NCBI RefSeq assembly: GCF_963921235.1
Contig: NC_086108.1
Span: 76,200,001 to 76,264,000 of the forward strand
DNA length: 64,000 nt
Direction of reading: 5' to 3'
Source: Mobula hypostoma
Lineage: Eukaryota
Shown here: piece after piece, positions 8,776 to 62,727 of the stretch
How positions within the stretch are numbered: position 1 is the stretch's first letter
Layout of the letters: each line of letters begins with the position of its first letter
Translations under genes and position numbers: made by a program
The notes under the pieces: generated by a model
Seen by the model: only the letters and a program-made list of their open reading frames with translations
Database searches by the model: none
What the model was told of the DNA's origin: nothing

Positions 8776-9854
8776 TATTTCTCATTAATGTTTTTAGCTG
8801 GTCTGGCCAATATTTGACTGCAAAATCCACAGCAGTGTGTTTGGCTTTTGATTGGTCTCGGGTAACTGGGGATGGACAATAAGAGCTAGTCTTGCCTGCA
8901 ATGCTTAGACTTAAGAAAGAATTGAAAAGGCATTACCTATTCAGTAAAATCAAACATGGAGAGTAATATATTTTAACCAAAACCAAATTACTCTGGATTT
9001 AAGTCTTCCCCAAAATGTAATTTTTCTACACAATTAAGTTTAATATTATACAAATTCCTCAAATAGTTGATACCACCATTGCTGTCAACTCTCTGGAGTA
9101 CAATTGGTATTAGCCAAATTGGTAAAAGCTAACATTGGGTATTTCAATTAGTTTGCTATCAAAAAGCCCACCGGAGGAAAACGAATAGTATATTACAATG
9201 ATGTGTGCCAAAGGACACATTTCCAACAGTGAAAGCTGACTCGGTGTTTCAACATTTCACTCTCAGGGTAATTTTAAGATGGTCTTGAGAGATTAAAGAG
9301 AGATTAGCTTTAGTTACCGCATATATATGGAAACATAGTGCGAAATGTGTTGTCTGTGTTGGTGACCAACACAATCGATGTACTGTGCTGGGTGTAGCCC
9401 GCAAGTCTCACCACATTTCTGAAAATGGGAAAACAAAAAGTACGGAACTGGATTCTAGCGGACAACACTGTTGGTTCTACTGAAAAGGCCCCAGACCCAA
9501 GCTTTGTTTATTTTTCAATGCTATTTGTCAAGCCTCCAGAGGAGAAAATAACAGTATCTGAGCAGAGTAATTGGGACCAGTCAGCTACAAGTGAGCAGAG
9601 TGACAAACTGTCCCCTTTTACTATGCAAGTTGTGAAGATGCATTTCTGCAGGAGCTGTAGACTTAAATTCATGATAATGCAACTTTAAGAAGAAATGAAT
9701 AAGGTTTTAACTAAAAAGCAATGATTACTAATTAACAACTGCTTCAGCAGGCTGAATATCAGAAAAGCTATATATTGTGCCTATTATCCCATGGGTATCC
9801 CTATTATTAACCATTACAGATGATGCAGTGCTATTTTTACACTGAAAAAATAAT

Positions 9855-9996
9855 GTTCATGCATTTTATTACCATCCTACCTGTCATCTTACCTTACCCA
9901 AGTGTGTCATAAATGATACTAAGTAAACTTTGCAGTATATTCACAAAGCTCATTAGCTTCTTAATGTTTGTAAATTTGTTCAGAGTCGAACTTTCA
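9855..9996 (+). repeat. Left arm of a long-range inverted repeat (perfect 51-bp core 9909-9959)
   Basis: ATAAATGATACTAAGTAAACTTTGCAGTATATTCACAAAGCTCATTAGCTT is the exact reverse complement of 18433-18483; the flanks match imperfectly. Confidence 0.9.
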
Positions 9997-10137
9997 TGAA
10001 GTCAACATCTTGTATTTGAACAAAACCGCTTTTGGCCAGGTCAGCAGTTACTACTGTGATTTTTTAAAAAAAATGTGTTATTACAATCAGCTTTTAATTC
10101 AGTTAACCATCTGAACCACTTTAAATGGTACAGTTTT

Positions 10138-12477
10138 GAACATAGAACATAGAATAGTACAGCATAGTACAGGCCCTTCAGCCCTGAATGTTGTGCCAAC
10201 CCTCAAACCCTGCCTCCCATATAACTCCCCACCTTAAATTCCTCCATATACCTGTCTAGTAGTCTCTTAAACTTCACTAGTGTATCTGCCTCCACCACTG
10301 ACTCAGGCAGTGCATTCCACACACCAACCACTCTCTTGAGTAAAAAACCTTCCTCTAATATCCCCCTTGAACTTCCCACCCCTTATCTTAAAGCCATGTC
10401 CTCTTGTATTGAGCAGTGGTGCCCTGGGGAAGAGGTGCTGGCTATCCATTCAATCTATTCCTCTTATTATCTTGTACACCTCTATCATGTCTCCTCTCAC
10501 CCTCCTTCTCTCCAAAAAGTAAAGCCCTAGCTCCCTTAATCTCTGATCATAATCCATACTCTCTAACCCAGGCAGCATCCTGGTAAATATCTCTTCTGTA
10601 CCCTTTCCAATGCTTCCACATCCTTCCTATAGTGAGGCGACCAGAACTGGACACAGTACTCCAAGTGTGGCCTAACCAGAATTTTATAGAGCTGCATCAT
10701 TACATCGCGACTCTTAAACTCTATCCCTCGACTTATGAAAGCTAACACCCCATAAGCTTTCTTAACTACCCTATCTACCTGTGAGGCAACTTTCAGGGAT
10801 CTGTGGACATGTACCCCCAGATCCCTCTGCTCCTCCACACTACCAAGTATCCTGCCATTTACTTTGTACTCTGCCTTGGAGTTTGTCCTTCCAAAGTGTA
10901 CCACCTCACACTTCTCCGGGTTGAACTCCATCTGCCACTTCTTAGCCCACTTCTGCATCCTATCAATGTCTCTCTGCAATCTTCGACAATCCTCTACACT
11001 ATCTACAACACCACCAACCTTTGTGTCGTCTGTAAACTTGCGAATCCACCCTTCTACCCCAACGTTTGTGTCGTCTGCAAACTTGCCAACCCACCCTTCT
11101 ACCCCAACATCCAGGTCATTAATAAAAACTACGAAAAGTAGAGGTCCCAGAACAGATCCTTGTGGGGCACCACTAGTCACAATCCTCCAATCTGAATGTA
11201 CTCCCTCCACCACGGCAAGCCAATTCTGAATCCACCTGGCCAAACTTCCCTGGATCCCATGCCTTCTGACTTTCTGAATAAGACTACCGTGTGGAACCTT
11301 GTCAAATGCCTTACTAAAATCCATATAGATCACATCCACTGCACTACCCTCATCTATATGCCTGGTCACCTCCTCAAAGAACTTTATCAGGCTTGTTAGA
11401 CATGATCTGCCCTTCACAAAGCCATGCTGACTGTCCCTGATCAGACCACGATTCTCTGAATGCCCATAGATCCTATCTCCAAGAATCTTTTCCAACAGCT
11501 TTCCCACCACAGATGTAAGGCTCACTGGTCTATAATTACCCAGACTAACCCTACTACCTTTTTTGAACAAGGGGACAACATTTGCCTCCCTCCAATCCTC
11601 CGGTACCATTCCCGTGGATAACGAGGACATAAAGATCCTAGCCAGAGGCTCAGCAATCTCTTCCCTCGCCTCGTGGAGCAGCCTGGGGAATATTCCGTCA
11701 GGCCCCGGGGACTTATCTGTCCTAATGTATTTTAACAACTCCAACACCTCCTCTCCCTTAATATCAACATGCTCCAGAACATCAACCTCACTCATATTGT
11801 CCTCACCATCATCAAGTTCCCTCTCATTGGTGAATACTAAAGAGAAGTATTCATTGAGGACCTCGCTCACTTCCACAGCCTCCAGACACATCTTCCCACC
11901 TTTATCTCTAATCGGTCCTACCTTCACTCCTGTCATTCTTTTTTTCTTCACATAATTGAAGAATGCCTTGGGGTTTTCCTGTACCCTACTCGCCAAGGCC
12001 TTCTCATGTCCCCTTCTTGCTTTACTCAGCCCCTTCTTCAGCTCCTTTCTTGCTTCCCTATATTCCTCAATAGACCCAACTGGTCCTTGCTTCCTAAACC
12101 TCATGTGTGCTGCCTTCTTCCACCTGACTAGATTTTCCACCTCACTTGTCACCCATGGTTCCTTCACCCTACCATTCTTTATCTTCCTCACCGGGAGAAA
12201 TTTATCCCTAACATCCAGCAAGAGATCTCTAAACATCGAGCACATGTCCATAGTACATTTCCCTGCAAAAACATCATCCCAATTCACACCTGCAATTTCT
12301 AGCCTTATAGCCTCATAATTTGCCCCTCCCCAATTAAATTTCCCTGTCCTCTCTTATTCTATCTTTTTCCATGATAATGCTAAAGGCTAGGGAGCGGTGG
12401 TCACTGTCCCCAAGATGCTCACCCACTGAGAAATCTGTGACCTGACCCGGTCATTACCTAGTACTAGATCTAGTATG
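10138..12477 (-). mobile_element. CR1 LINE A, 5'-truncated, relatively young
   Basis: (TTCTATG)n-type tail at 10138-10154, 3' UTR, long RT ORF, and endonuclease C-terminal remnant (GEHLGDSDH) near 12400. Confidence 0.95.
10563..12287 (-). pseudogene. CR1 ORF2 reverse transcriptase region (574-aa open frame)
   Basis: KSPGPDGI, NYRPVSLTS, QHGFVKGRSC, DFSKAFDKV, PQGSVLGP, FADD, RPHLEYCVQFWSP; frameshift near 10590; RT motif C is duplicated. Confidence 0.95.
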
Positions 12478-12519
12478 ACATGTAGGTAGGATTGATGGCA
12501 ATCAAAACATATTGCAGAT

Positions 12520-12705
12520 AATCATAAATAGTAAATCATAGTGAATAGCCAGAGATTTTTTCCTAAGGTGGAAATGGCTAATATGAGGGTAATTTTAAGA
12601 TGATTGGAGGAAGGTATAGGGGGGGATGCCAGAGGTAAGTTTTTTTTTACACAGAGCATGATGACTGCATGGAATATCCTGCCATGGGTGATGGTAGAAT
12701 CAGAT
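12520..12705 (+). mobile_element. Older CR1 3' fragment, left part (split by CR1 B)
   Basis: AGCCAGAGATTTTTTCC...TGGAATATCCTGCC...GGTAGAATCAGA; continues at 18093 (ATCAGAAACATTAGGGGC). Confidence 0.75.
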
Positions 12706-12785
12706 CCCATATAATCATATAACCATTACAGCACGGAAACAGGCCATCTGGGCCCTTCTAGTCCGTGCCAAACTCTTACTCTCAC

Positions 12786-15620
12786 CTAGTCCCACCGACC
12801 TGCACTCAGCCCATAACCCTCCATTCCTTTCCTCTCTATATAGCTGTCCAATTTAACTTTAAACGACAACATCGAACCTGCCTCAACCACTTTTGCCGGA
12901 AGCTCGTTCCACACAGCTACCACTCTCTGAGTAAAGAAGTTCCCCCTCATGTTACCCCTAAACTTTTGCCGCTTAACTCTCAACTCATGTCCTCTTGTTT
13001 GAATCTCCCCCACTCTCAATGGAAAAAGCCTATCCACGTCAACTCTATCTATCTCCCTCATAATTTAAAATACCTCTATGAAGTCCCCCCGCCCCAACCC
13101 AAACTTCTACATTCTAAAGAATAAAGACCCAACTTGTTCAACCTTTCTCTGTAACTTAGCTGACGAAACCCAGGTAACATTCTAGTAAATCTTCTCTGTA
13201 CTCTCTCTATTTTATTGACGTCTTTCCTATAATTCGGTGACCAAAATTGTACACAATACTCCAAATTTGGCTTCACCAATGCCTTGTACAATTTCAACAT
13301 TACATCCCAACTCCTATACCAAATGCTCTGATTTATAAAGGCCAGCATACCAAAAGCTTTCTTCACCACCCTATCCACATAAGATTCCACCTTCAGGGAA
13401 CTATGCACCATTATTCCTAGATCCCTCTGTTCTACTGCATTCTACAATGCCCTACCATTTACCATGTATGTCCTATTTTGATTAGTCCTACCAAAATGTA
13501 GCACCTCATATTTAACAGCATTAAACTCCATCCGCCATCTTTCAGCCCACTCTTCTAAATGGCCTAAATCTCTCTGCAAGCTTTGAAAACCTACTTCATT
13601 ATCCACAACTCCACCTACCTTAGTATCATCTGCATACTTACTCATCCAATTTACCACCCCTTCATCCAGATCATTAATGTATATGACAAACAACATTGGA
13701 CCCTGTACAGATCCCTGAGGTACACCACTAGTCACCAGCCTCCAATCTGACAAACAGTTATCCACTTCCACTCTCTGGCGTCTCCCATCCAGCCACTGCT
13801 GAATCCATTTTACTACTTCAATATCAATACCTAATGATTGAATCTTCCTAACCAACCTTCTGTGTGGAACCTTGTCAAAGGCCTTACTGAAGACAATATA
13901 GACAACATCCACCACTTTACCCTCGTCAACTTTCCTAGTAACCTCTTCAAAAAATTCAGTAAGATTTGTCAAACATGACCTTCCACACACAATTCCATGT
14001 TGACTGTTCCTAATCACACCCTGTCTATCCAGATAATAATATGTACCATCTCTAAGAATACTTTCCATCAATTTACCCACCACTGACGTCAAACTCATAG
14101 GCCAATAATTGCTAGGTTTACTCTTAGAACCCTTTTTAAACAATGGAACAACGTGAGCAATACGCCAATCCTCTGGCACCATCCCCGTTTCTAATGACAT
14201 TTGAAATATTTCTGTCAGAGCCCCTGCTGTTTCCACACTAACTTCCCTCAAGGTCCTAGGGAATATCCTGTCAGGACCCGGAGACTTATCCACTTTTATA
14301 TTCCTTAAAAGCTCCTGTACTTTCTCTTCTTTAATCATCATAGTTTCCATAACCTCCCTACCTGTTTCCCTTATCTTACACAATTCAATATCCTTTTCCT
14401 TAGTGAATTCCGAAGAAAAGAAATTGTTCAGAATCTCCCCCATCTCTTCTGGCTCCACACATAGCTGTCCACTCTGATTCTCCAAGGGACCAATTTTATC
14501 CCTCACTATCCTTTTGCCATTAATATGACGGTAGAAAACCTTGGGATTTATTTTCACCTTACTTGCCACAGCAACCTCATATCTTCTTTTAGCTTGTCTA
14601 ATTTCTTTCTTAAGATTCTTTTTACATTCTTTATGTTCCTCGAGCACCTCATTTACTCCACGCTGCCTATATTTATTGTATATATCTCTCTTTTTCCAAA
14701 CCAAGTTTCCAATATCCCTTGAAAACTATGGCTCTCTCAAACTTTTAACCTTTCCTAACAGGAACATAAAGATTCTGTACCCTCAAAATTTCACCTTTAA
14801 ATGACCTCCATTTCTCTATTACATTCTTCCCATAAAACAAATTGTCCCAATCCACTCCTTCTAAATCCTTTTGCATCTCCTCAAAGTTAGCCTTTCTCCA
14901 ATCAAAAATCTCAACCCTGGGTCCAGACCTATCCTTCTCCATAATTATATTGAAACTAATGACATTGTGATCACTGGACCTGAAGTCCTCCCCAACACAA
15001 ACCTCCGTCACCTGACCTATCTCATTCCCTAACAGGAGATCCAACACTGCCCCTTCTCTAGTTGGTACCTCTTTGTATAGCTGCAAAAAACTATCCTGCA
15101 CACATTTTACAAACTCCAAACCATCCAGCCCTTTTACAGTATGGACTTCCTAGGCTATGTGTGGAAAATTAAAATCTCCCACAATCACAACCTTGTGCTT
15201 ACTACAAATATCTGCTATCTCCTTACAAATTTGTTCCTCCAATTCTCACTCCCCATTTGGTGGTCTATAATACACCCCCATAAATGTTACTACACCTTTC
15301 CCATTCCTCAATTCCACTCAAATAGCCTCCCTAGACAAGCCCTCTAATCTATCCTGCCAGAGTACTGCTGTAATATTTTCTCTGACAAGCAATGCAACAC
15401 CTCCCCCTCTTGTCCCTCCAATTCTATCGCACCTGAAGCAATTAAATCCAGGAATATTTAGTTGCCAATCACACCCCTCCTGTAACCATGTTTCACTAAT
15501 AGCTGCCACATCATACTTCCAGGTATCAATCCATGCTTTAAGCTCATCCACCTTTCTTATAATGCTTCTAGCATTAACATAAATGCATTTAAGAAATTTT
15601 CCACCTCTTTCTCTCTGTTT
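12786..15620 (-). pseudogene. CR1 B ORF2 (APE endonuclease + RT), disrupted
   Basis: EN motifs KCIYVNARSI, ISETWL, RGGGVALLV, LDLLL, SDH; RT motifs KSPGPD, FSKAFDKV, PQGSV, YADD; spread over ORFs 15318-15731, 14745-15119, 13442-14704, 13076-13411 and 12786-13061. Confidence 0.93.
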
Positions 15621-15747
15621 ATCACTAACGGTGCAAACAACTTCACTATTTTCTTTTTCTTCCTTCTCCCCTACATCTGTTCCTACAACACACATCAAAG
15701 TTGCTGGTGAACGCAGCAGGCCAGGCAGCATCTCTAGGAAGAGGTAC

Positions 15748-15783
15748 AGTCGACGTTTCAGGCCGAGACCCTTCGTCAGGACT
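15748..15783 (-). ncRNA. Minimal type I hammerhead ribozyme motif (PLE-associated)
   Basis: Reverse complement reads AGTC-CTGACGA-A-GGGTCTCGGCCT-GAAA-CGTC-GACT, identical to 16418-16453. Confidence 0.85.
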
Positions 15784-16417
15784 AACTGAAGGAAGAGTGA
15801 GTAAGGGATTTGAAAGCTGGAGGGGGAGGGGAAGATGCAAAATGATAGGAGAAGACAGGAGGGGGAGGGATAGAGCCGAGAGCTGGACAGGTGATAGGCA
15901 AAAGGGGATACAAGAGGATCATGGGACAGGAGGTCCGGGAAGAAAGACGGGGGGGGGGGGTGACCCAGAGGATGGGCAAGAGGTATATTCAGAGGGACAG
16001 AGGGAGAAAAAGGAGAGTGAGAGAAAGAATGTGTGCATAAAAATGAGTAACAGATGGGGTACGAGGGGGAGGTGGGGCCTAGTGGAAGTTAGAGAAGTCA
16101 ATGTTGACTTCTCTAACTTCCGCTAGGCCCCACCTCCCCCTCGTACCCCAGCTGTTACTCATTTTTATGCACACATTCTTTCTCTCACTCTCCTTTTTCT
16201 CCCTCTGTCCCTCTGAATATACCTCTTGCCCATCCTCTGGGTCACCCCCCCCGTCTTTCTTCCCGGACCTCCTGTCCCATGATCCTCTTGTATCCCCTTT
16301 TGCCTATCACCTGTCCAGCTCTCGGCTCTATCCCTCCCCCTCCTGTCTTCTCCTATCATTTTGCATCTTCCCCTCCCCCTCCAGCTTTCAAATCCCTTAC
16401 TCACTCTTCCTTCAGTT

Positions 16418-16453
16418 AGTCCTGACGAAGGGTCTCGGCCTGAAACGTCGACT
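16418..16453 (+). ncRNA. Minimal type I hammerhead ribozyme motif (PLE-associated)
   Basis: Stem I AGTC/GACT, core CTGACGA and GAAA, stem II GGGT/GCCT, palindromic ACGT stem III, GTC cleavage triplet ending at 16449. Confidence 0.85.
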
Positions 16454-16585
16454 GTACCTCTTCCTAGAGATGCTGCCTGGCCTGCTGCGTTCACCAGCAA
16501 CTTTGATGTGTGTTGCTTGAATTTCCAGCATCTGCAGAATTCCTGTTATCTGTTCCTACACTCTGGTTCCCCTCTCCTCTTGTAT

Positions 16586-17997
16586 CTAGTTTAAATCCAC
16601 TGGAGCCTCTTTAGCAAACCTACCTGCAAGAATATTTGTCCACCTCCAGTTCAGATGTAAACCGCCCTGCCGGAACAGGTCCCACCTTCCCTGGAAAACT
16701 GCCCAATTATCTATAAATCTGAAGCCCTCCCTCCCGCACCATGTCTTCACCCACGTGTTGATCTGCGCTACCTTACTATTTCTAAACCCGTCTGCACGAG
16801 GAACTGGTAGCAATCCTGAGATTGCTATCCTGGAGGTGCTGTCCTTCAGCTTTGCACCTAACTCCCTAAATTCTCTTTGCAGGACCTCCTCCTTCTTCCT
16901 ATCCACGTCATTGGCCCCTACATGGACCACAACATCTGGCTGCTCACCCTCCCTCTTGCGAATACCGAGAACTCGATCCGCGATATCTCGGACCCTGGCA
17001 GCAGGGAGGCAACAGACCACCCGGGATTCTCGATCTCTTCCACAGAACCTCTTATCTGTCCCCCTAACTATCGAATCCCCTATCATTACTGCTCTCCTCT
17101 TTTCCCTCCTTCCCTTCCGAGTTCAGGGTCCCATCTCGGTGCCAGAGACGCAACCACTGCAACTTGTCCCTGGTAGGTCATCCCCATCAACAGTATCCAA
17201 AACGATGTACTTATTATTGGTGGGAACAGCCACAGGGGTGCTCTGCTCATTCTGTCTATTCCCCTGCCCTCTCCTGACAGTCACCCAGCTACCTGGGTTA
17301 ATTCCTGGGAAGCCCGGACTGTCTTACGCAGAGAGGTTAGAGAGACTTGGCTTGTACATGCTGGAATTAAGGAGATCGAGGGGGGATCTGATTAAGACAT
17401 ATAAGATTATTAAGGGATTGGACAAGATAGAGGCAGGAAATATGTTCCAGATGCTGGGAGAGTCCAGTACCAGAGGACATGGTTTAAGAATAAGGGATAG
17501 GTCATTTAGGACAGAGTTGAGAAGGAACTTCTTCTCCCAGAGAGTTGTGGAGGTGTGGAACGCGCTGCCTCAGAAGGCAGTGGAGGCCAATTCTCTGGAT
17601 GCTTTCAAGAAGGAGCTAGATAGGTATCTTATGGATAGGGTTATGGGGACAAGGCAGGAACCGGGTATTGATAGTAGATGATCAGCCATGATCTCAGAAT
17701 GGCGGTGCAGGCTCGAAGGGCCGAATGGTCTACTTCTGCACCTATTGTCTATCGTCTATTACCTGTCTCCTGACTCTTAGGGGTGACTATCTCCCTGTAA
17801 CTCCTCTCTATTTCTGCCTCTGCCTCCCGAATGATCCGAAGTTCATCCAGCTCCAGCTTCAGTTCCCTAACTTGGTTTGTCAGGAGCTGCAGCTGGATGC
17901 ACCTTTTGCAGGTGTAGTTATCAGGGACAATTGTGCTCACTCTGACTTCCCACATCTTGCAAACAGAGCACTCAACTGCTCTGACTGCTGCCTCCAT
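16586..17997 (-). pseudogene. CR1 B ORF1 (Cys motifs, coiled coil, SGNH/GDSL esterase), interrupted
   Basis: VECSVCKMWE..YTCKRC and a heptad segment (17749-17997); IGDSIVRG, HVGAND, GLHLN (16586-17086). The frame rejoins as SQETGSWVTVRRG after removing the 17296-17759 insertion; one TGA at 17123-17125. Confidence 0.9.
17296..17759 (+). mobile_element. 5'-truncated CR1 3' end inserted into ORF1 of CR1 B
   Basis: LIPGKPGLSYAERLERLGL...RNFFSQRVVEVWNALP; CTATTGT-type tail; TSD TACCTG at 17290-17295 and 17760-17765. Confidence 0.92.
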
Positions 17998-18092
17998 TAC
18001 CTACTCTTAAGGTAATTAGATTTATTAAAGGAACTTACCCAACCTTACCTCACTTGGAGTGAAGCACTTCCTCTGTCTCTACTCGCTGAAGC

Positions 18093-18225
18093 ATCAGAAA
18101 CATTAGGGGCACTTAGGAAACTCTTAGATATCTACATGGATGGTAGAGAAATGGAGGGCTCTGTAGGAGGAAAGAGTTAGGTAGCTGGGGGGAAGGCTTG
18201 TACTGTGCTGTAATGTTCTATGTGT
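18093..18225 (+). mobile_element. Older CR1 3' fragment, right part
   Basis: Continuation of 12520-12705, ending TGTACTGTGCTGTAATGTTCTATG. Confidence 0.75.
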
Positions 18226-18391
18226 TATTAGCATTCTGCAATTTGCTTGCCAGTTCAATTTCTTTCAGTACAGGAAGTAGATTAGGAATACTGTTCCCCT
18301 TTTAACTCACTAGTGTTAAGATTTTTTTCTCTTTCAAGAAGCATTTCTAGTAATAAATATTTTCATGTGTCTAGTTTGCCCAAACACACCG

Positions 18392-18528
18392 AGAAAGTGT
18401 GGCTCTGAATAAACAATTTACAAGCAATTAGAAAGCTAATGAGCTTTGTGAATATACTGCAAAGTTTACTTAGTATCATTTATTGCACAGTGGGTAAGGT
18501 ATGATTACAGTAATAAAACACATAAACA
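18392..18528 (-). repeat. Right arm of the long-range inverted repeat (perfect core 18433-18483)
   Basis: Exact reverse complement of 9909-9959, with diverged but alignable flanks. Confidence 0.9.
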
Positions 18529-21831: not shown

Positions 21832-23193
21832 GCAGTTTTTGTGATTTTTATATTGTTGGGTGGTTTGGGCATCATGCTGGTCCTTGACTTTAGCTGAGAG
21901 GGGTTTATCCCAATCAGTTAATGGATTGGGGAGGCCATTTGTCATTACTAAGGTGCAGGTGGGAGTGGCAATGGCAGTAATATATATTGGCTGCACTGGC
22001 ATTAAGATGAGAGGCATAGAAGTGGCATAACAGTAGAATTGCATGTAGTACAGCGTAGGGGTATGGTGGATGATGATTAGTTCCTGCGAGCACAGCTATC
22101 TATATACTTTTGTCATTTTTTTGGTTTTCTTGAGAGTGATTTAAATGAAATCATCCCATGCTTGCTTTTTGTCAAAATTGGGGTAAGAAGAACAATTCAC
22201 AATTAAAAGTGCTGATTCAATTTGATGACTGACTTGATATGACTCCAGAATGAAAAGCAATTGAATCCAATTTTGCTTAACTCAATTTTACATCAATTGA
22301 TGGTCAGCATGGAGTTAGTAGGCTGAGAACTTGTTTCTGTACAGTATCCCTCTACGAATCGAGGACTTTACCACTGAAGAAAGTCAAAACATTGCATTAC
22401 AAAACTTTTGTTACACTGAAAATCATGTGGCTTTTCAAATTGATGAGTATATTAATTTAAAATTGAGTAGCTGTTAATTTTCATCAACCTTTAGTAATGT
22501 AATGGATTTCAGAGTCTTGCAATATGTAAAACAGCAACCTCATTCTCTCTGGTAAGTCCTCTCTCTTTACTGTGTGACTGTGTTGCTATCCAAAGTTGAT
22601 CGGCAGCTGCATCAATATGCAGGAGGCCTCACTATAACTTTCAGCTGTTTATTTGTAACTTAGTATTTAATGCTAATTTCATAAATCACTGAAATGCTAC
22701 ATTTTAGACAATAGACTAGATGATTTTTTGTTCCAGACAAAATATTCTATTTTTATAACCAAGTTGGGTAGAGATTTGGGATGAATGGCAACAGTGGTCA
22801 TCTTTCAGCTTTAAATGATCTGTCATTTTAAAAGTGGCAGAAGCATTGATGTCAATTATGCAAATACATCAATGGGGTAATTCATAAGTTGATTAAAGGA
22901 TGAAGTAAACACAAGTTTTAATGAATTGGTTACAATTTTTCACCTGACATTAGGATTATTAAACATTTTATGAAGTTCCCTTATGATCTATGAATGTTTT
23001 GGTTACTTGTTTTAGAAGGTCAAAAAAGACAGAAATGTTGAAAAGATCCGTTGGGTATCTATCTACTGTTCATCGATTTCATTGCCTAGACTTAATTATT
23101 TTATGATGTAATTTGTATATCATTACTTACTGAACTTTATAAAATCAAGCATTTTCTCACTTGTATAAGAAGAGTGAGCAGCTATTTAAGAGT

Positions 23194-23705: not shown

Positions 23706-25587
23706 CAACAATCCCACAATTACAGTTCCAGAGAAATGTCATTAGACCCTGATGTGTGGAAATGTTTAATTTTTTTCTGTGTTTGCAACATGAGAAGTAC
23801 AATCCATTTTGCTTTACAGTCACATCTAAAAGTTCAATAATAGTGAAGGTTAATAATGTGTGAATACATTTGGGATGAGTGGCATTTATATATTTTTTCA
23901 AGATTGCTGGAAGTTTTTACACAGGAGATAAAAAATATATCATTCAGTTCGTTTGGCAGGTAAGAGTTCAATTTCTTTGATCAGATGTTGTGCATGTGTT
24001 GCCTATACTATAAAATTTCATTGCCTCTGTTACAGAGCAAACTTGACTAGCAAATCATGAAAATGAGATAGTACCCTGACACACTATTAAACAACAGTAT
24101 GGAAAGTATACTACGAAATAACTGTACTTCAGACCAACTTTTATTACAAAAGAATTTTACATGATAAGATTTGGTCAACATGTAGTTTTCATGAATGCCT
24201 GTTGTAGCAAAGGAATAATTAAATGAGTTAATTAGATTCAGTAACAGTTACGGAAGAACTAATTACATTGGACTGAAGATAAAGTTTGAACCAAGAATGT
24301 TATTCCTTTATTGATAACCAACAATCAACAGCTTCAACTGTTTGCTGACATGTTATCCGATCCTTTTTCTTTGCCCCATAAATTCCAAAAAGTTCACTTG
24401 AAATGAATTTTCCTCATCAATTTTCAAACATTCCTGTTACGTTAATGTGATAACTGTCATTGCAGGTCTCTCAACTTCCACCTCCACAAAAGAATAACAA
24501 CTTTTATTTTCCCTCTTTTACTACTTGAAAGCAATTTATGTAACAAAGCAATATAGAAATTTCTGAAAAATATGAGAGCAATCAAACACATTTTGAAACA
24601 TTTTACTTTAAAGTGAATTCCTCTTAGATTTCTTAGATATATAAAGAAAAATGTAAGTATATAATGGAGAATAGGAGAAAATGGAGAATTTTCCATTTGT
24701 ATAGTGAACACAAATATGAATGTTGCCACAAAGGATAAAAAAAGGCAAAGTATAGCCCCTGTCCAGCATCATTCTCTCTATAGGTGAGTTTCCAGCAGAA
24801 CTGCAGAGACAGGGCTAATCTGCCACTTCCAGGGAGTATCCAGGAAATCTGCAGAGCGTGGGGTAAAACCCTTCAGAAGTTTATTGCCTGGACACCTATA
24901 AACCACAATTCTAAAGAAAAATGGGTTGAGATGTGATTAAAAATAATACTTTTCCTTTTGATATTTTAGGATTATTGATAATTTAGAAAAATAAGCTTGT
25001 TTGTTGGGTGAAGGATAAGATGAAGCTTTCAAATAAAAATGGTACGTAATGCTATTCAGTGGCACTGTTGTACACTTTATGAGGCAATGAATATCTTAGT
25101 GTGATACTAATGTAATTGATCATTCCTGTATAATGAAACTAGTCCTTGCTTCTGACAACAGGTTACATGCTATATATGATTAAATAACTGTTCCCACTAT
25201 CTTCATGGGATTTCCAAAGCAGCAAGCCAAGTTTTTTTTTAGAGGTTAGATCCAGTTTGCTTGAATGTGAACCCCCTTCGTGCTAGTTCCTTCATTATGT
25301 TGGCAATATTCTTGCAGTCATCTGTTTGAGGAATAAAAAGTATTGATAGTTTCAGTTTTTGCAGTGTAAAGATAAAACAAGCACAGACTAGAACATTACA
25401 GAACAAATGAACCATGCGCTGAAATCCTGAGCGAATTATTTGATCAGAATTAATTACATAATTGCCAACACTGCCTCCAGATTGCAAGATGGCAGCTGAG
25501 GCACTTGCTGCTTCCTGAGCCAGTAACCATCTGTTGAGTGACAAACGGCCTTGGACTGTGGGAAGGAGCAGAGTCTTATTCAGAGCA

Positions 25588-32454: not shown

Positions 32455-32983
32455 ACAAGGAAATCTGCAGATGCTGGAAATTCAAGCAACACACACAAAA
32501 TGCTGGTGGAACGCAGTAGGCCAGGCAGCATCTACAGGAAGAGGTACAGTCAACATTTCGGGCCGAGGCCCTTTGTCAGGACTAACTGAAAGAAGAGATA
32601 GTAAGAGATTTGAACCCCATCCCTCATTTATTTATCATTTTTCATTTTTTCCCCTTTCTTTCTCTCTCTTTCTCCTTCTGTCCCTCTCACTATATCATCC
32701 TCTGATGCTCCCCTCTCCCTTTCTTTCTCTTTAGGCTTCCTGTCCCATGATCCTCTCCCTTCTCCAGCCTTGTATCCCTTTCGCCAATCAGCTTTCCAGC
32801 TCTTAACTCCATCCCTCCCCCTCCTGTCTTCTCCTATCATTTTGGATCTCCCACTTTCAAATTTCTTACTATCTCTTCTTTCAGTTAGTCCTGACGAAGG
32901 GCCTTGGCCCGAAACGTCGACTGTACCTCTTCCCATGGATGCTGCCTGGCCTGCCGCATTCCACCAGCATTTTGTGTGTGTTG
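32455..32983. mobile_element. Palindromic PLE insertion with unequal arms and ~13-bp TSD
   Basis: Tail 32455-32486; inverted arms 32487-32614 and 32856-32983; TGGGAACAAAAGC (32442-32454) and TGGGAACATAAGC (32984-32996). Confidence 0.92.
32887..32922 (+). ncRNA. Minimal type I hammerhead ribozyme motif
   Basis: AGTC-CTGACGA-A-GGGCCTTGGCCC-GAAA-CGTC-GACT; intact core and a Watson-Crick stem II variant. Confidence 0.85.
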
Positions 32984-45231: not shown

Positions 45232-45817
45232 GCAACACACATCAAAGTTGCTGGTGAACGCAGCAGACCAGGCAGCATCTCTAGAAAGAGGTACAGTCGA
45301 TGTTTCAGGCCGAGACCCTTCGTCAGGACTAACTGAAGGAAGAGTTAGTAAGAGATTTAAGAGGGGGAGGGGGAGGGGGAGATCCAAAATGATAGGAGAA
45401 GACAGGAGGGGAAGGGATGGAGCCAAGAGCTGAACAGGTGATTGGCAAAGGGGATATGAGAGGATCATGGGACAGGAGGTCCAGGGAGAAAGACAAGGGG
45501 TGGGCGGGGGGAACCCAGAGGATGGGCAAGGGGTATAGTCAGAGGGGCAGAGGGAGAAAAAGGAGAGAGAGAGAAAGAATGTGTGTATATAAATAACAGA
45601 TGGGGGAGGTGGAGCATTAGCGGAAGTTAGAGAAGTCAATATTCATGCCATCAGATTGGAGGCTACCCAAACGGAATATAAGATGTTGTTCCTCCAACCT
45701 GAGTGTGGCTTCATCTTTACCGTAGAGCAGGACATGGGTAGACATATCAGAATGGGAATGGGATGTGGAATTAAAATGTGTGGCCATTGGGAGATCCTGC
45801 TTTCTCTGGCGGACAGA
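45232..45817 (-). mobile_element. PLE 3' region: GIY-YIG C-terminus, UTR and hammerhead (45295-45330), no tail
   Basis: VRQRKQDLPMATHFNSTSHSHSDM...LEEQHLIFRLGSLQSDGMNIDFSNFR*; nucleotide match to 15686-16101 and 62083-62670. Confidence 0.92.
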
Positions 45818-46658: not shown

Positions 46659-46794
46659 GCAAACACCAGGAATTCTGCAGATGCTGGAAATTCAAGCAAC
46701 ACACATCAAAGTTGCTGGTGAACGCAGCAGTCCAGGCAGCATCTTTAGGAAGAGGTACAGTCGACATTTCAGGCCGAGACCCTTCGTCAGGACT
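46659..46794 (-). mobile_element. Short PLE insertion spanning tail to hammerhead, with 13-bp TSD
   Basis: Tail, terminus and hammerhead (46759-46794); AGGACTACATCTC at 46646-46658 and 46789-46801. Confidence 0.9.
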
Positions 46795-47584
46795 ACATCT
46801 CATGTGGCTCCAGGTTGTTCTCAATTCCACATTGGCATAACATCTTGGAGCAAGATACAGCAACCATGTGAAGGTCAAATGATCTGAAGATGGGTGTGTG
46901 TGTGTGAGGGGGGAGAACTGATGGGAAATAATGCGGCACCATGTCTTGGGAAGAAAAAGAATTTTCTCATGTCAGTCAGGTGTACAATTATTCACAGCTC
47001 CCTGTCTGTAATCAAAACCTCCATTAAACTGCAGCAGCAGTCATTGTTTAAAAAGAACTGATTTAATGACATTATTATAAAATGGATTGCTCTGAATGAT
47101 TCTCTAATGGAAACACCATATCACATTGGAAGGAAAACCTGTTATTGTAACTTGCTGTTTATTATCACCTTGGGAAGTATCATCAAGAGTAAAGGAGTTC
47201 AATACTGCTGCGTTCTGTTGAAAAATTCTTTGAAGACTGCATGAGAAGTATTCTGTACTCATTATACTTGCACATTAAATCTGTATAAGCAACATTAATT
47301 TTTCAAAGACTGCTATTAGTGTAACTGAAGATATTTTATTATGAATTAACACATAGAAGCATCTCTTTATGACAGTTTTAGAGTCAGCGCTTCAAGTGTA
47401 AAAGTCTACTACAGCTCTCCATCAAAAGGTCAGTTTCCTAACCATATCAATGGGCTCTGTGCACTATGGAAAAATCTTGTTCTGGCTACTCAAAAGCTGT
47501 TCTTCACATTACACTGAAGAACGAGGGAGGGAATAGATTATCAGGCACTTATCAATTGAGTGTTTCTAGTGTCACTAAAGAAAA

Positions 47585-48531: not shown

Positions 48532-49862
48532 TTTTCTCTCCATTCAGAAAATAGTCAACACTTTCATTTTTTTCTACTAAAGTGCATGACCATACACTTC
48601 CCAACACTGTATTCTGTCTGCCATTTCTTTGCTCATTCTCCCAATCTACGTAAGTCTTTCCGTAAACTTCCTACTTCCTCAAAACTACCTGCCCCTCCAC
48701 CTATCTTCATATTGTCTGCAAACTTTGCAACAAAGCCATCAATTGCATTATCCAAATCATTGACATATAACGTAAAAAGAATTGGTCCCAACACAGACCC
48801 CTGTAGAGCACCACTAGTCACTGGCAACCAGTCAGAAAAGGCTCCCTTTATTTCCACTCTTTGCCTCCTGCCAATCAGCCATTGCTTTATCCATACTAGA
48901 ATTTTTCCTGTAATAGCATAGGCTTGTAGCCTGTTAAGCAGCCTTATGTGTGGCACCTTATCAAAGGGCTTCTGAAAATCCAAATATGCAACATCAAGCC
49001 ATTCTTCTTTGTCTATCCTGTTTGTTATTTCTTCAAAGAATTCCAACAGAATTGTCAGGCATGGTTTTTCCTTAAGGAAACCATGCTGACAATGGCCTAT
49101 TTTATCATGTGCCTCCAAGTACCTTGAGACCTCATCCTTAATAATCAACTCCAACACCCTCCCAACCACTGAAGTCAGACTAACTGGCCTATAGTTTCCT
49201 TTCTTCTGTCTCTCTCCCTTCTTGAAGAGTGAAGTGACATTTTCAATTTTCCAGTCTTCTGGAACCATTCCAGAATCAAGTGATTTTTGAAAGATCAGTA
49301 CTAATGTCTCCATAATCTCTTCAGCCACCTCTTTCAGAACTCTGGGGTGTACACCATCTGGTCCAGGTGACTTATCTATCTTCAGACCTTTCAGTTTCCA
49401 AGAAACTTATATTAGTTATGGTAATTTCACACACTTCATACCCCCAACACCTGGAACTTCCACCATACGGCTAGTGTCTTCCACAGTGAAGAGTGATGCA
49501 AAATACTTATTCAGTTCATCCACCATTTCATTGACCCCATTACTACCTCTCCAACATAGTTTTCCAGCAGTCTGATACTCTCTTTTATACTTTATGTATC
49601 TGAAGAAACTTTTGGTGTCCTCTTGAATATTACTGGCTAGCTTACTTTTGTATTCCATCTTTACCTTAATGATTCTTTAGATTGTCTTCTGTTGGTTTTT
49701 AAAAGCTTCCTAATTCTCTAACTTCCCACTAATTTTGGCTCTATTGTATGCCCTCTCTTTGGCTTTTATGTTGGCTTTGACTTCTCTTGTTAGCCACGGT
49801 TGTGTCATCTTTCCTTTAGAATACTTCTTCCTCTTTGGAATGTATTCTATCCTATATCTTCT
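48532..49862 (-). mobile_element. CR1 ORF2 internal fragment
   Basis: ORF 48633-49328: EDWKIENV, NYRPVSLTS, QHGFLK, DFQKPFDKVPH, QGSVLGP, FADN. Confidence 0.92.
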
Positions 49863-49864
49863 GT

Positions 49865-52800
49865 AATCTCTGGCTTGTGCTACGCGTCAGTGAGGGTAAA
49901 AATAGTGTGATTTGGCAGATGAATACATGGCTAAGGTGCTGGTGCAGAGGCCAGGGGTTCAGATTTCTGGTTCATTGGGATCTCACTGGGGAAGGTACGA
50001 CCTGCACAAATGGGATGGATTACAGCTGAACCTAATATTATGGGCTGGTTTGCTAGCAAAGTTAGGGAGGGTTTAAACTAATTTGGCAGAGGGATGGGAA
50101 CTAGAGTGATATAGCTGAGGATGCAGTGTACAGTGAGACTGTCAGGAAGGACAAGCAGATGAAAGGGAAAAATTGCAGTCAGAGATGAGTTGCAGTGTAA
50201 CATGGGGTAAAAGTAGAAAATGGTGACAATTACAGGCCTGAAGGTGTTATATTGATTATCTTGTAGTGCAGTTAGAGATTGCTGGGTGTGGCACTGTGGG
50301 CATCACTGAGTCATGGCCGGAAGAAGATCAGTTTGGAGCTTAACATCCAAGGATACACACTGCATCAAAAGGACAGGCAGGTAGGCAGAGGGGGTGGTGT
50401 GGCTCTGTTGGTAAAAAAATAGAATTCAAATCCTTAGAAAGAGGTAACATAGCAGTGGAAGATGCAGAAACCTTGGGAGTAGAATTAAACTGCAAGGCTA
50501 AAAAGACCCTGATGGAAGTTAAATACAGGCCTCCAAACAGTAGCCAGGATGTGGGCTACAAATTACAACGACAGATAGAAAACACACGTCAAAAGGGCAA
50601 AGTTACTATGGGGATTTCTAGGATGCCTAGGAGATGCTTTTTAGAACAGCTTGTGGCTGAACCCACTAGGGGAACTGCTATTCTGGATTGGGTGTTATAT
50701 CATTGGGTGATTTGATTAGGGAGTTTAAGGTAAAGGAACCCTTAGGAGACACTGATCATAATATGAGAGAATTCACCCTGCAGTTTCAGAGGGATAAGAT
50801 AATGTGAGATGTATCAGTATTACAGTGGAATAAAGGAAATTATAGAGGCATGACAGAGGAGCTGGCCGAAGTTGGTTGAAAGGGGAAACTAACAGGGATG
50901 ACAGCAGAACAGCAAAGGCTGGAGTTTCTGGGAGAAATTCGGAAGGTACAAGATAGATACATCTAAAGAATAAGTATTCTAAAGGCAGGATGACACAACT
51001 GTGGCTGACAAGGGAAGTCAAAGCCAGCATAAAAGCAAAAGAGAAAGCATATAATCGAACAAAAACTAGTGGGAAGTTAGAGGATTGGCAAGATTTTAAA
51101 AAGCAACAGAAGGCCTCAAAAGCCATGAGGAGGGAAAAGATGAAATATGAAGGTAAGCTAGCAAATTATATAGAGGAGCATACAAAAAGTTTTTTTCAGA
51201 TATATAGAGAGTAAAAGAGGCAACAGTAGATATTGGACGCCCGGAAAATGACACTGGAGAGGTAATAATGGCAGACATCCCACCCTGCAAAAACTCATTT
51301 CAGGGAGGTAGCACGATCAATTTGCGGGAGATTCCCAGAACTTCCGGGAGAGGTGGGATGTCTGCAATAGAGTAGCTCCTTAGCAGCTAGCCAGCTAGTT
51401 TAAATAATGTTAGCTACGCTAATGAATGAATGACACCTGTTAAATTCACCTCAACATGTCTTTTACAGTCTTAACCCACCATGGGCAATAGAAAAGTCAC
51501 TGTTGCAAACAGTGCAGCGAGCAACACTGTCATTATTTTTGACCCCTATTAGTTGGGGTACACTTTAGGGTAGTTTGGGGTGACGTACGTTTTATATTTT
51601 CTTATTTTGGAACACTCTGCCATGGTGCGGGGGCACACTCTCTCTGTCTCACGCTCTCTCTTGCTCTCTTGTGGTTGCTCTGTTGCTCTCGTGCGCTGTC
51701 TCTATCTCTCTCTCGCTTGCTCTCAAAAAATTGATTTCTGGGACATTGTATATAATTTGTGGGTATCAGGGAGCCACTATTAATATGCAGGAGACTCCCG
51801 GAACTTCCAGGAGAGGTGGGATGTCTGTAATGGGGGAACAAGAAAATGGCGAACCAACTAACTGAGTATTTTGCATCAGTCTTCACTGTGTAAGACACCA
51901 GAGGTATGTTGGAAGTTTGAGAGTATCTGGGAGAAGGTGCTTGGAAAGCTGAAAGGTCTGAAGGTAGGTAAGTCACCTGGACCAGATGGACTACACCTTA
52001 GGTTTCTGACAGAGTTAGCTGAAGAGATTATGGAGGCATTAGTAATGATCTTTCGAAAATCACTAGATTCTGGCATGGTTCTAGAGGACTGAAGAATTGT
52101 AAATGTCACTGCACCTTTAAGAAGGGAGGGAGGCAAAAGAAAAGAAATTATAGGCCAGTTAACCTGACTTCAGTGGTTGGGAAGAAGTTGGAGTCGATTG
52201 TTAAGGATGAGGCCTCAGGGTACTTAGAGGTGCATGATAAAATAAGCTAAAATCAGCATGATTTCCTTAAGGGGAAAATCTTGCCTGATAAATCTGTTGG
52301 AATTCTTTGAGGAAATAACAAGCAGGATAGACAAAGGAGAATTAATGGATGCTGTGTACTTGGATTTTCAGAAGGCGTTTGACGAGGTGCCACACATGAG
52401 GCTGCATGATATTGCAGTAAAGAATCCATAATACTGGAGTAAAGATATAAGCATGGATAGAGCATTGGCTGATTGGCTGGAGGCAAAAAGCGGGAATAAA
52501 AATTTATTCTGGTTTGCTGCCAATGACTAATGGTGGTCCACAGAGGTCAGTGTTGGGACTGCTTCTTTTTACATATATGTCAATGATTTAGATAACAGAA
52601 TTGATGGGTTTGTGGCCAAGATAGTGTATGATACGAAGACAGGTGGAGGGGTAAGTTGTGTTGAGGAAGCAGGGAGGCTGCAGAAGGACTAAGGCAGATT
52701 CAGAGAATGGGCAAAGAAGTGGCAGATGGAATACAATGTCGGAAAATGCATGATCATGCACTTCGGTGGACTGTTTTCTAAATGGGCAGAGAATTGAAAA

Positions 52801-56446: not shown

Positions 56447-56791
56447 GATCATTCTGCTGTCAGAGGGAAGACTGCCTTTAGATCACTGGTGGGCTCACTC
56501 TGCTACAGAGAGGGAAGACTGCCTTTTGAACACTAGGGGATCACTCTGCTATCGGAAAGGAGAGACAGCCTTCTGATCGCTGGTGGGATCACTCTGCTAC
56601 GGAGAGGAGAGACTGCCTTTTGATCACTGGGGGATCACTCTGCTATCGGAAAGGAGAGACTGCCTTTTGATCGCTGGGGGATCACTCTGCTATCGGAAAG
56701 GAGAGAATGCCTTTAGATTGTTGCTGGAGAGGAGAGACCGCCTTTTGATCACTGGGGGATTGCTCTGCTATCGGAGAGGGCAGAGGCTGCC
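56447..56791 (+). repeat. 47-bp minisatellite
   Basis: Units like GATCACTGGGGGATCACTCTGCTATCGGAAAGGAGAGACTGCCTTTT start at 56481, 56528, 56575, 56622 and 56669; a shortened unit starts at 56716 and the last at 56747. Confidence 0.95.
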
Positions 56792-62470: not shown

Positions 62471-62727
62471 TTAGCGGAAGTTGGAGAAGTCAATGTTCAT
62501 GCCATCAGGTTGGAGGCTACCCAGATGGAATATAAGGTGTTGTTCCTCCAACCTGAGTGTGGCTTCATCTTTACAGTAGAGGAGGCCGTGGACAGACATG
62601 TCAGAATGGGAATGGGATGTGGAATTAAAATGTGTGGCAACTGGGAGATCCTGCTTTCTCTGGCTGACAGAGCGTAGGCGTTCAGCAAAGCGGTCTCCCA
62701 GTCTGCGTCGGGTCTCGCCAATATATA
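62471..62727 (-). pseudogene. PLE GIY-YIG endonuclease, C-terminal part
   Basis: YIGETRRRLGDRFAERLRSV...VATHFN...RLEEQHLIFHLGSLQPDGMNID. Confidence 0.92.

What the first reader, a model, noticed from the sequence alone, without database searches (positions are those of the whole stretch)
9855..18528. Perfect 51-bp inverted repeat core in unique sequence, bracketing an 8-kb retroelement pile
Seen: 9909-9959 is the exact reverse complement of 18433-18483, while the surrounding ~140 bp aligns only with many substitutions and indels. The arms match none of the repeat families I recognise in the window. Almost all of the spacer (10138-18225) is CR1/PLE insertion, so the arms were probably only about 400 bp apart originally. 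Inference: an old inverted duplication or hairpin whose core has been kept identical, either by selection (a long-range RNA duplex affecting editing or splicing, or twin cis-regulatory elements) or by arm-to-arm gene conversion, and which survived expansion of its loop.
Basis: partly seen in the sequence, partly recalled or inferred. Interest (0 to 1): 0.72.

Follow-up and report, generated by a model that had tools for sequence, protein, structure and literature searches.

The report
Inverted twin conserved elements, ray genome
Two mirror-image copies of a short non-coding sequence in a ray genome have stayed unchanged in related species while 8 kb of jumping-gene DNA piled up between them, which marks them as functional, either as twin gene-control switches or as the two halves of a long RNA stem.

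Summary
The 51-bp perfect inverted repeat is real (9909-9959 / 18433-18483), inside 115/118-bp arms that are 86% alike. Contigs of four related species show only these two loci, so it is not a MITE end.

The left arm ends a 302-bp block (9697-9998) with no listed change in 2 of 2 fully covering species, against 3.6-5.2% outside. The right arm's own differing flanks (30+30 bp) are unchanged in the 3 runs that show them. Neutral conversion alone cannot do that. A 2.3-kb LINE in the spacer is absent in two relatives, so the loop grew recently.

I found no host exon and no Rfam, microRNA or coding support. Because everything is frozen, there is no covariation to test pairing.

Best reading (0.42): twin cis-regulatory elements from an old local inverted duplication, with a shared or once-converted core. 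Close rival (0.33): a long-range + strand RNA duplex (-150 kcal/mol; 5:0 G-U bias, P about 0.06; + strand skew). It is a striking, testable variant of known conserved-element classes, not a new class.

The parts
9697..9998 (.). Left invariant non-coding block, 302 bp, 68% AT: 184 bp with no significant counterpart on the right (9697-9880) plus the left arm
   Evidence: No substitution or deletion listed in organisms C and H (full cover) or E and F (cover to 9938), against 3.4-5.2% in the neighbouring covered sequence. P(0) is 1.6e-5 (C) and 2e-6 (H) after dropping two homopolymer zones. Outer-flank homology not significant. AT content.
9881..9995 (+). Left arm of the inverted pair
   Evidence: 102 of 119 columns identical to the reverse complement of the right arm
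9909..9959 (+). Left copy of the perfect 51-bp core
   Evidence: In run X17 the core is a 51-letter contig of its own, depth 30.2 against 14 and 15.1 for the left flank contigs
9880..9897 (-). Three splice-donor-like motifs on the - strand (ranks 9, 17 and 50 of 3385 GT sites); no matching acceptor found, function not shown
   Evidence: Rough donor matrix from recalled frequencies; no - strand acceptor of 9690-10140 in the top 600 of 4453
9996..10143 (.). Original inner spacer, left part; evolves at background rate
   Evidence: 6 substitutions each in C and H between 9999 and 10107
10144..12481 (-). Young 5'-truncated CR1-type LINE (about 2.3 kb) with a 4-bp direct repeat at its ends; absent in organisms C and H
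   Evidence: RVT_1 E=5e-34. Contigs of X9 and X17 stop matching at 10143 and go on with letters matching 12482 onward (24 of 25, compared by eye)
12482..12708 (+). About 60 bp of probably original spacer, then the first part of an older CR1 3' fragment
   Evidence: tblastn hit 12541-12723 on +; the 60 bp is read by eye
12709..18090 (-). Near full-length CR1-type LINE (esterase ORF1 and broken reverse-transcriptase ORF2) nested in the older fragment; itself carries two later insertions
   Evidence: RVT_1 E=1.4e-25, Lipase_GDSL_2 E=4e-12; hits 12789-15640 and 16589-17122 on -, 17298-17645 on +. Its ends are read by eye
15686..16515 (.). 834-column near-perfect palindrome made of two inverted copies of a retroelement terminal repeat (Penelope-like; label recalled)
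   Evidence: 98.3% self-match, 93% to 62084-62497 next to the RT frame at 62580
18091..18225 (+). Rest of the older CR1 3' end with its tail
   Evidence: Read by eye; a shared hexamer at both break points
18226..18392 (.). Original inner spacer, right part
   Evidence: No repeat match in the window; conservation not tested
18393..18510 (-). Right arm of the inverted pair; 18403-18513 is unchanged in organisms E, F and H
   Evidence: The 30-letter loose ends at 9909 and 9959 in X15, X13 and X17 equal the window's right-arm flanks letter for letter; P(0 of 60) is 0.002-0.011
18433..18483 (-). Right copy of the perfect 51-bp core

Best explanation
A pair of paralogous conserved non-coding elements (CNEs) made by an old local inverted duplication of about 115-150 bp of a larger (302 bp or more) element, originally about 0.4 kb apart. 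Both copies are under purifying selection. They most likely work as DNA: twin transcription-factor-binding modules (enhancer-like) acting at long range on a gene whose exons lie outside this window. The flanks diverged early and were then frozen separately in each copy. The core stayed identical because both copies need the same dense run of sites, or because one short conversion tract equalised it while the arms were close and before these species split, or both. Such elements act largely independently of distance (general knowledge), so 8 kb of LINE insertion between them was tolerated. Shown: the inverted pair, two loci only, constraint on both arms, recent loop growth. Inferred: origin by duplication, enhancer function, conversion.
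For: Constraint covers 184 bp that has no partner on the other side and also the positions where the arms mismatch; pairing alone does not predict either. The core has 0 wobble-type differences in 51 bp, while 5 of 58 pairable flank positions are wobble-type (P about 0.01). That fits identity at DNA level better than RNA pairing, which tolerates G-U. 7 of the 12 arm-to-arm substitutions are transversions that break a pair on either strand. No coding exon was found among 264 of 264 non-repeat frames of 45 aa or more, Rfam gives nothing, and the block is AT-rich, as for typical vertebrate CNEs, many of which act as enhancers (PMC2781166, passages). The core holds Fox-like, Sox-like and homeodomain-like words (motifs recalled and chosen after seeing the sequence, so a lead only). 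PMC8052449 (discussion) notes that oppositely oriented factor-binding sites mimic conserved RNA pairings.
Against: A 51-bp perfect run between copies whose flanks are about 75% alike is far from uniform decay, so it needs unusually strong shared constraint or a conversion event, and neither is shown. All 5 transitions between the arms are G-U compatible on the + strand, and the region has a + strand skew; both favour the RNA rival. No chromatin or reporter data. The target gene is unknown. Motif counts are small and not clearly above background.
Confidence: 0.42

Rival explanations
1. Long-range RNA duplex. In a + strand pre-mRNA or long non-coding transcript the left arm pairs with the right arm over about 115 bp and loops out the spacer (8.4 kb here, shorter in relatives). 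The stem would recruit ADAR, or mask the donor-like and acceptor-like sites in the right arm. The extra 184 bp on the left would be a protein-binding or overlapping regulatory region.
For: Duplex energy is -149.7 kcal/mol on + and -134.3 on -, against -14.5 to -21 for each arm folding alone. 5 of 5 transitions are G-U on + and none on - (P 0.03 one-sided, 0.06 two-sided). An independent T>A and G>C skew on + runs over 1-28000 (4 of 5000 block flips; 141 and 95 of 5000 for the two sides). The invariant block ends at 9998, three bases past the end of complementarity. Inverted orientation is required by this model. Donor-like sites at 18494 and 18499 rank 57 and 82 of 3367.
Against: No compensatory change can be counted because nothing varies. 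The core has no wobble pair (P about 0.01), and the flanks have 7 transversion mismatches plus gaps. The wobble bias is lost (5 against 3) if the weak 9849-9880 extension is included. The same differences read as A-C mismatches on the - strand, so they do not fix the strand. Any inverted duplicate gives a strong computed duplex. Skew can also come from replication. No host exon was found.
Confidence: 0.33
2. Exapted relic of an ancient palindromic non-autonomous DNA transposon (UCON/Eulor-like). The arms are its terminal inverted repeats, and one copy was domesticated as a regulatory element.
For: The size without insertions (about 540 bp arm to arm) suits a non-autonomous element. Ancient conserved repeats of DNA-transposon origin are known in jawed vertebrates (PMC5753468, passages).
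Against: No other copy at 80% or more over the core in 4 of 4 runs. Identity peaks in the middle of the arms and fades outward, and no clean end or target duplication is evident. The left constrained block runs 184 bp outside the arm.
Confidence: 0.1
3. RNA-processing or small-RNA unit in each arm: an outward-pointing micro-exon or poison exon (branch-point-like word, donor cluster, one RBFOX word downstream on the left), a polyadenylation signal, or a microRNA-like hairpin.
For: Three donor-like motifs within 18 bp on - at 9880-9897 (ranks 9, 17, 50 of 3385), followed by 184 frozen bases with one RBFOX word. The core folds into a 16-bp hairpin with G-U pairs on one strand. Conserved intronic elements often hide poison exons flanked by PCCRs (PMC11632617, passages).
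Against: No acceptor in the top 600 of 4453 on - in the left arm region; the best in the right arm on + ranks 383 of 4206. Hairpin z-scores are only -1.4 and -1.5, at -14.5 and -17.2 kcal/mol. No Rfam match near a gathering score. Frames shift between the arms upstream of the core. The two units point in opposite directions, so they would need two transcripts.
Confidence: 0.08
4. No function: a neutral inverted duplicate whose core was homogenised by gene conversion.
For: A single 50-55-bp tract between arms 0.4 kb apart would give the perfect core (general knowledge of conversion tract lengths).
Against: The unconverted flanks are frozen too: 0 changes in 251 non-core left positions (P 1e-4 in C, 2e-5 in H) and 0 in 60 right positions (P 0.002-0.011). 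The longest invariant gap of 302 bp or more arose in 0 of 200,000 random placements of the 36 variable sites. The species are related, so these P values are not independent.
Confidence: 0.04

Closest known systems
Duplicated conserved non-coding elements (dCNEs) and CNE/UCE enhancers of jawed vertebrates (PMC2781166; 12 of 15 passages read)
   Same: Non-coding, hundreds of bp, near-invariant among relatives, present as two related copies with a best-kept core
   Different: Described dCNEs lie near paralogous genes after genome duplication. These two lie in cis, inverted, originally about 0.4 kb apart, with 51 of 51 identity. Conservation to bony vertebrates and enhancer activity are untested.
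[quoted passage not shown]
   Same: Two conserved non-coding stretches, complementary, less than 10 kb apart, overlapping weak splice-site-like motifs
   Different: PCCR medians are 13 nt and -17.2 kcal/mol; this pair is about 115 bp and -150 kcal/mol and arose as an inverted copy. Host gene, covariation and probing support are lacking.
ADAR editing inducer elements (PMC5654063; abstract and 8 passages read)
   Same: Conserved long intronic stem with bulges and mismatches
   Different: The table rows seen list stems of 25-54 bp, closed locally, 32-220 nt from an edited site. Here the stem is longer, its loop is kilobases, and no exon or edit is known.
HOTAIR / HOXD11 paralogous 32-nt CNEs (PMC7139118; abstract only)
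   Same: Paralogous conserved elements proposed to act both as enhancer DNA and as complementary RNA, so the two leading readings need not exclude each other
   Different: That pair lies on different clusters, pairs in trans and shows compensatory changes; this pair is in cis, longer and shows no variation.
MITEs and ancient conserved repeats (UCON, Eulor; PMC5753468, 12 of 16 passages read)
   Same: Inverted arms around a few hundred bp
   Different: No dispersed copies at 80% or more in four relatives; best identity is internal, not terminal. No Repbase or Dfam library was available to test old families.

Membership tests
MITE / non-autonomous DNA transposon | Many dispersed copies | tested here: not met
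   pieces over the core come from two loci only in 4 runs at 80% likeness. 32 of 53 pieces are shown, and the depth bins over the core are accounted for by hand from the two loci. Older, more diverged families are not excluded.
MITE / non-autonomous DNA transposon | Best identity at the termini, with a target-site duplication | tested here: not met
   Identity peaks mid-arm and the ends fray
Conserved non-coding element (CNE) | Non-coding and non-repetitive | tested here: met
   No Pfam hit for 4 of 4 arm frames; no Rfam family at gathering score; two loci only
Conserved non-coding element (CNE) | Far more conserved than neighbouring DNA | tested here: met
   0 changes in 302 bp against 3.6-5.2% outside, in close relatives only
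Conserved non-coding element (CNE) | Conserved out to sharks, chimaera or bony vertebrates | not testable with these tools
   No vertebrate genome collection; no own genome held
Conserved non-coding element (CNE) | Enhancer activity | not testable with these tools
   Needs chromatin or reporter data
dCNE as described in PMC2781166 | Copies lie near paralogous genes at different loci | tested here: not met
   Copies are 8.5 kb apart in cis and inverted
PCCR (long-range pre-mRNA duplex) | At least 10 nt, -15 kcal/mol or stronger, within 10,000 nt, both sides conserved | tested here: met
   51 bp perfect, -79.2 (core) and -149.7 (arms) kcal/mol; 8,473 nt apart; both sides conserved
PCCR (long-range pre-mRNA duplex) | Both sides in one transcript of a protein-coding gene | tested here: inconclusive
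   No exon found; only a + strand skew hints at transcription
PCCR (long-range pre-mRNA duplex) | Compensatory substitutions | tested here: inconclusive
   No variable site in either arm in the species laid
ADAR editing inducer element | Long stem within about 220 nt of an edited exonic site | tested here: inconclusive
   The stem is possible; no exon found nearby; editing not testable
pre-microRNA | Unusually stable hairpin or match to a known family | tested here: not met
   z -1.4 and -1.5; no Rfam microRNA hit at E<=10
Coding exon (leucine-rich repeat) | Significant single-domain match and a frame shared by both arms | tested here: not met
   Whole-sequence E 1.5e-4 comes from summed repeats, best single stretch E 7.5-9; right arm 0 hits; Pfam 0; frameshift between arms

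The most novel reading that the evidence does not exclude
The pair is a functional, very long intramolecular RNA duplex (about 115 bp, 51 bp perfect) born when part of a frozen regulatory element was copied in reverse next to itself, so that the copy now controls the original by pairing. It still works across a loop that retroelements stretched from about 0.4 kb to 8.4 kb. Related rays with shorter loops would make a natural experiment on the distance limits of co-transcriptional pairing. The same sequence may also serve as enhancer DNA.
Probability: 0.28. Interest if true: 0.72.

Novelty: new variant of a known kind. Interest (0 to 1): 0.5.

Why it matters
Why conserved non-coding elements are so invariant is an open question, and DNA-level and RNA-level explanations are usually hard to separate. 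Here two related copies sit in one locus with a shared perfect core, separately frozen flanks and a spacer whose length differs between close species. One alignment to sharks and chimaera, plus one RNA or chromatin data set, can decide between twin enhancers and a long-range stem. If it is a stem, it is about nine times the median length of catalogued conserved intronic pairings and spans a loop expanded some twentyfold. If it is a twin enhancer, it is a clean case of local inverted duplication of a regulatory module.

Tried and rejected
No whole genome is held for the window, so copy number rests on relatives' contigs.

Sequencing runs: 24 rows, 20 holders in 8 coded organisms, 4 rows marked as a possible source; no RNA holder listed. 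I laid 4 of the 16 non-source holder rows (organisms C, E, F, H; 4 of 7 non-source organisms), on the left arm only.

Holes, not used as evidence. In X9 no right-arm piece was laid and the left contig runs unbroken through the core; this could be loss or divergence of the right arm in organism C, assembler pruning or the tool's filter. X13 and X15 do not cover 9960-10037. 21 of 53 pieces, 10 of 34 loose ends and 4 of 16 indel rows are not shown. One 1-base insertion in X9 could not be placed. A few substitutions near contig ends are unlisted (for example 19 counted and 16 listed for the X9 contig).

Rfam: 0 at gathering score over the window; 5 and 3 chance-level hits at the arms, all far below cut-off.

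Pfam on 264 non-repeat frames: 6 weak hits below cut-off, in unrelated families. Exons under 45 codons between stops would be missed. The leucine-rich-repeat likeness of a 35-aa left-arm frame was rejected as a summed-repeat artefact. A search of that frame against the large protein collection was not possible at that length, so an annotated short exon is not excluded.

Homology beyond the arms looked colinear by eye but was not significant. The microRNA reading was rejected on energy. Divergent leader exons were rejected for lack of a shared frame, downstream exons or an acceptor. Polyadenylation-signal-like hexamers at the outer core edge were noted by eye and not tested.

Two exact scans of metagenome contigs with core words gave 0. 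Earlier findings by sequence, place and relatives gave none; one search gave only prokaryote and phage items.

Literature: core words are not in the library's text. Searches gave 0 papers; others gave listings with no description of such a pair, judged from titles and abstract starts. PMC4889666 (3 passages) was irrelevant. No supplements were opened; the human PCCR catalogue of PMC8052449 could hold an orthologue.


Full report
OBSERVATION. The core is as described: 9909-9959 is the exact reverse complement of 18433-18483, and the run cannot be extended. It lies in arms 9881-9995 and 18393-18510 with 102 of 119 columns identical. Shuffling the columns gives a run of 51 or more in 101-277 of 200,000 trials, and the next longest exact inverted match in unmasked sequence is 17 bp. 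Similarity outside about 9850-9995 is not significant. Earlier AI notes on this genome call it a devil or manta ray (unchecked).

THE SPACER. About 95% of 10138-18225 is retroelement (padded mask). It holds two - strand CR1-type LINEs: reverse transcriptase at E 5e-34 and 1e-25, and an esterase ORF1 at E 4e-12 (the esterase ORF1 as a CR1 mark is recalled knowledge). It also holds an older + strand CR1 3' end that the second LINE appears to split (read by eye), and an 834-column palindrome of a terminal repeat also seen beside an RT frame at 62580. Without these the cores are 385 bp apart, or about 445 bp if 12482-12540 is original. In organisms C and H the contigs stop matching at 10143 and continue with letters matching 12482 onward, so 10144-12481 is a recent insertion. 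Whether the 5.4-kb LINE is also absent there was not tested.

COPY NUMBER. One search found the left region in 8 coded organisms. I laid one run each of C, E, F and H on 9440-10160 at 80% likeness. Over the core, the pieces shown belong to the left-arm or right-arm locus. In X17 the core is its own 51-letter contig at depth 30.2, the left flank contigs overlap it by 30 letters at depths 14 and 15.1, and hand arithmetic on the depth bins leaves two further pieces at about 15-16, matching the two right-arm loose ends. The tool warns that summed depth is no copy number, so I rely mainly on this branching pattern: two ways in and two ways out. The CR1 tail at 10120-10160 drew many contigs, so the method does see repeats. 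A MITE family is rejected down to 80% likeness; older families are not excluded.

CONSTRAINT. This is the main new result. Table 3 lists 36 variable positions between 9487 and 10107, none from 9697 to 9998. C and H cover the whole 302 bp; E and F cover it to 9938. Rates outside are 4.4% (C), 3.4% (E), 5.1% (F) and 5.2% (H), or 3.6% and 4.2% for C and H without two homopolymer zones, giving P(0) of 1.6e-5 and 2e-6. A gap that long arose in 0 of 200,000 random placements. The 30 letters on each side of the right core equal the window's in E, F and H (P 0.002-0.011). The species are related, so the P values are not independent. The positions where the two arms differ from each other are thus frozen in each arm, which conversion cannot do. 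The left block runs 184 bp outward past the arm and ends three bases past its inner end.

WHAT IT IS NOT. There is no Rfam family. The core hairpin has z of -1.4 to -1.5. No Pfam family passes cut-off in 264 of 264 non-repeat frames of 45 aa or more (6 weak hits). A 35-aa frame on the left arm hit leucine-rich-repeat proteins at E 1.5e-4, but the best single stretch has E 7.5-9, the right arm gives nothing and the frames shift between arms. Donor-like motifs point outward from both arms (ranks 9, 17, 50 of 3385 on -; 57, 82 of 3367 on +), but no good acceptor goes with them (rough recalled matrices).

HOW IT MOST LIKELY WORKS. Two readings remain. For twin DNA elements: constraint extends beyond the complementary part and covers mismatched positions; 7 of 12 arm differences are transversions; and the core has no wobble-type difference although 5 of 58 pairable flank positions do (P about 0.01), which suggests identity at DNA level by shared binding needs or one conversion tract. 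For an RNA duplex: the orientation is inverted; all 5 transitions are G-U compatible on + (-149.7 against -134.3 kcal/mol; P 0.03-0.06, and 5 against 3 if the weak outer extension is added); and an independent + strand skew spans both arms (4 of 5000 flips over 1-28000), though replication can also cause skew. Covariation cannot be tested because nothing varies at this distance. I put twin cis-regulatory elements at 0.42, a functional duplex at 0.33, an exapted old transposon at 0.10, an exon or small-RNA unit at 0.08 and neutrality at 0.04. The first two can both hold. Shown: the pair, two loci, constraint on both arms, recent loop growth. Inferred: origin, transcription, any molecular function.

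COMPARISON WITH KNOWN KINDS. It behaves like a vertebrate CNE and resembles duplicated CNEs, but those described lie near paralogous genes (PMC2781166, passages), not in cis and inverted. It meets the length, energy and distance limits of human PCCRs, whose medians are 13 nt and -17.2 kcal/mol (PMC8052449 section 6). That paper also warns that inverted factor-binding sites are indistinguishable from true pairings by conservation alone. Editing inducer stems in the table rows seen are 25-54 bp and near edited sites (PMC5654063). The HOTAIR/HOXD11 pair is a precedent for paralogous CNEs with both roles (PMC7139118, abstract). I found no description of this pair in nine library searches; the library lacks most subscription papers and no supplements were read.

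VERDICT. The element is real, functional by the conservation test and present at two loci only; mechanism and gene are unresolved. It is a new variant of known kinds (a cis, inverted, perfectly cored CNE pair or an unusually long PCCR). Interest 0.5, rising to about 0.7 if distant orthologues or RNA data show that the arms pair across the expanded loop.

Noticed in passing
window 15686-16515: 834-column, 98% self-complementary palindrome of a retroelement terminal repeat inside the spacer; related copies at 32487-32983, 45232-45817, 46660-46795 and 62084-62671. If the + strand is transcribed it forms a much larger local stem inside the loop.
   Followed up: partly
window 48580-52770: Two CR1-type copies in inverted orientation, 77% alike over about 970 bp, with a 51300-51831 inverted pair between them.
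   Followed up: no
window 1-28000 versus 28001-64000: T>A and G>C skew on + in unique sequence up to about 28 kb (4 of 5000 flips); beyond it the T/A skew turns negative and the sum is not significant (924 of 5000). It may mark the end of a transcription unit or a replication feature.
   Followed up: partly
window 22780-22930 and 25400-25560: Unique AT-rich stretches that look by eye like further conserved elements (octamer-like and Sox-like words; labels recalled); conservation not tested.
   Followed up: no
window 1-64000: No host coding exon was recognised in 64 kb: a very large intron or a gene desert.
   Followed up: partly
window 9897-10001 (-): 35-aa open frame with chance likeness to leucine-rich repeats; a caution about summed repeat scores.
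   Followed up: yes
window 9907-9912 (+) and 18480-18485 (-): At the outer edge of the core the two arms differ, yet each shows a hexamer that reads as a polyadenylation signal or a posterior-Hox/CDX-type word (labels recalled, seen by eye).
   Followed up: no
window 56447-56718: 47-bp minisatellite, 5.8 copies.
   Followed up: no
run X9 (organism C), window 9447-10143: The left contig runs unbroken through the core and no right-arm piece was laid; whether the right arm is lost, changed, pruned or filtered is undecided.
   Followed up: no
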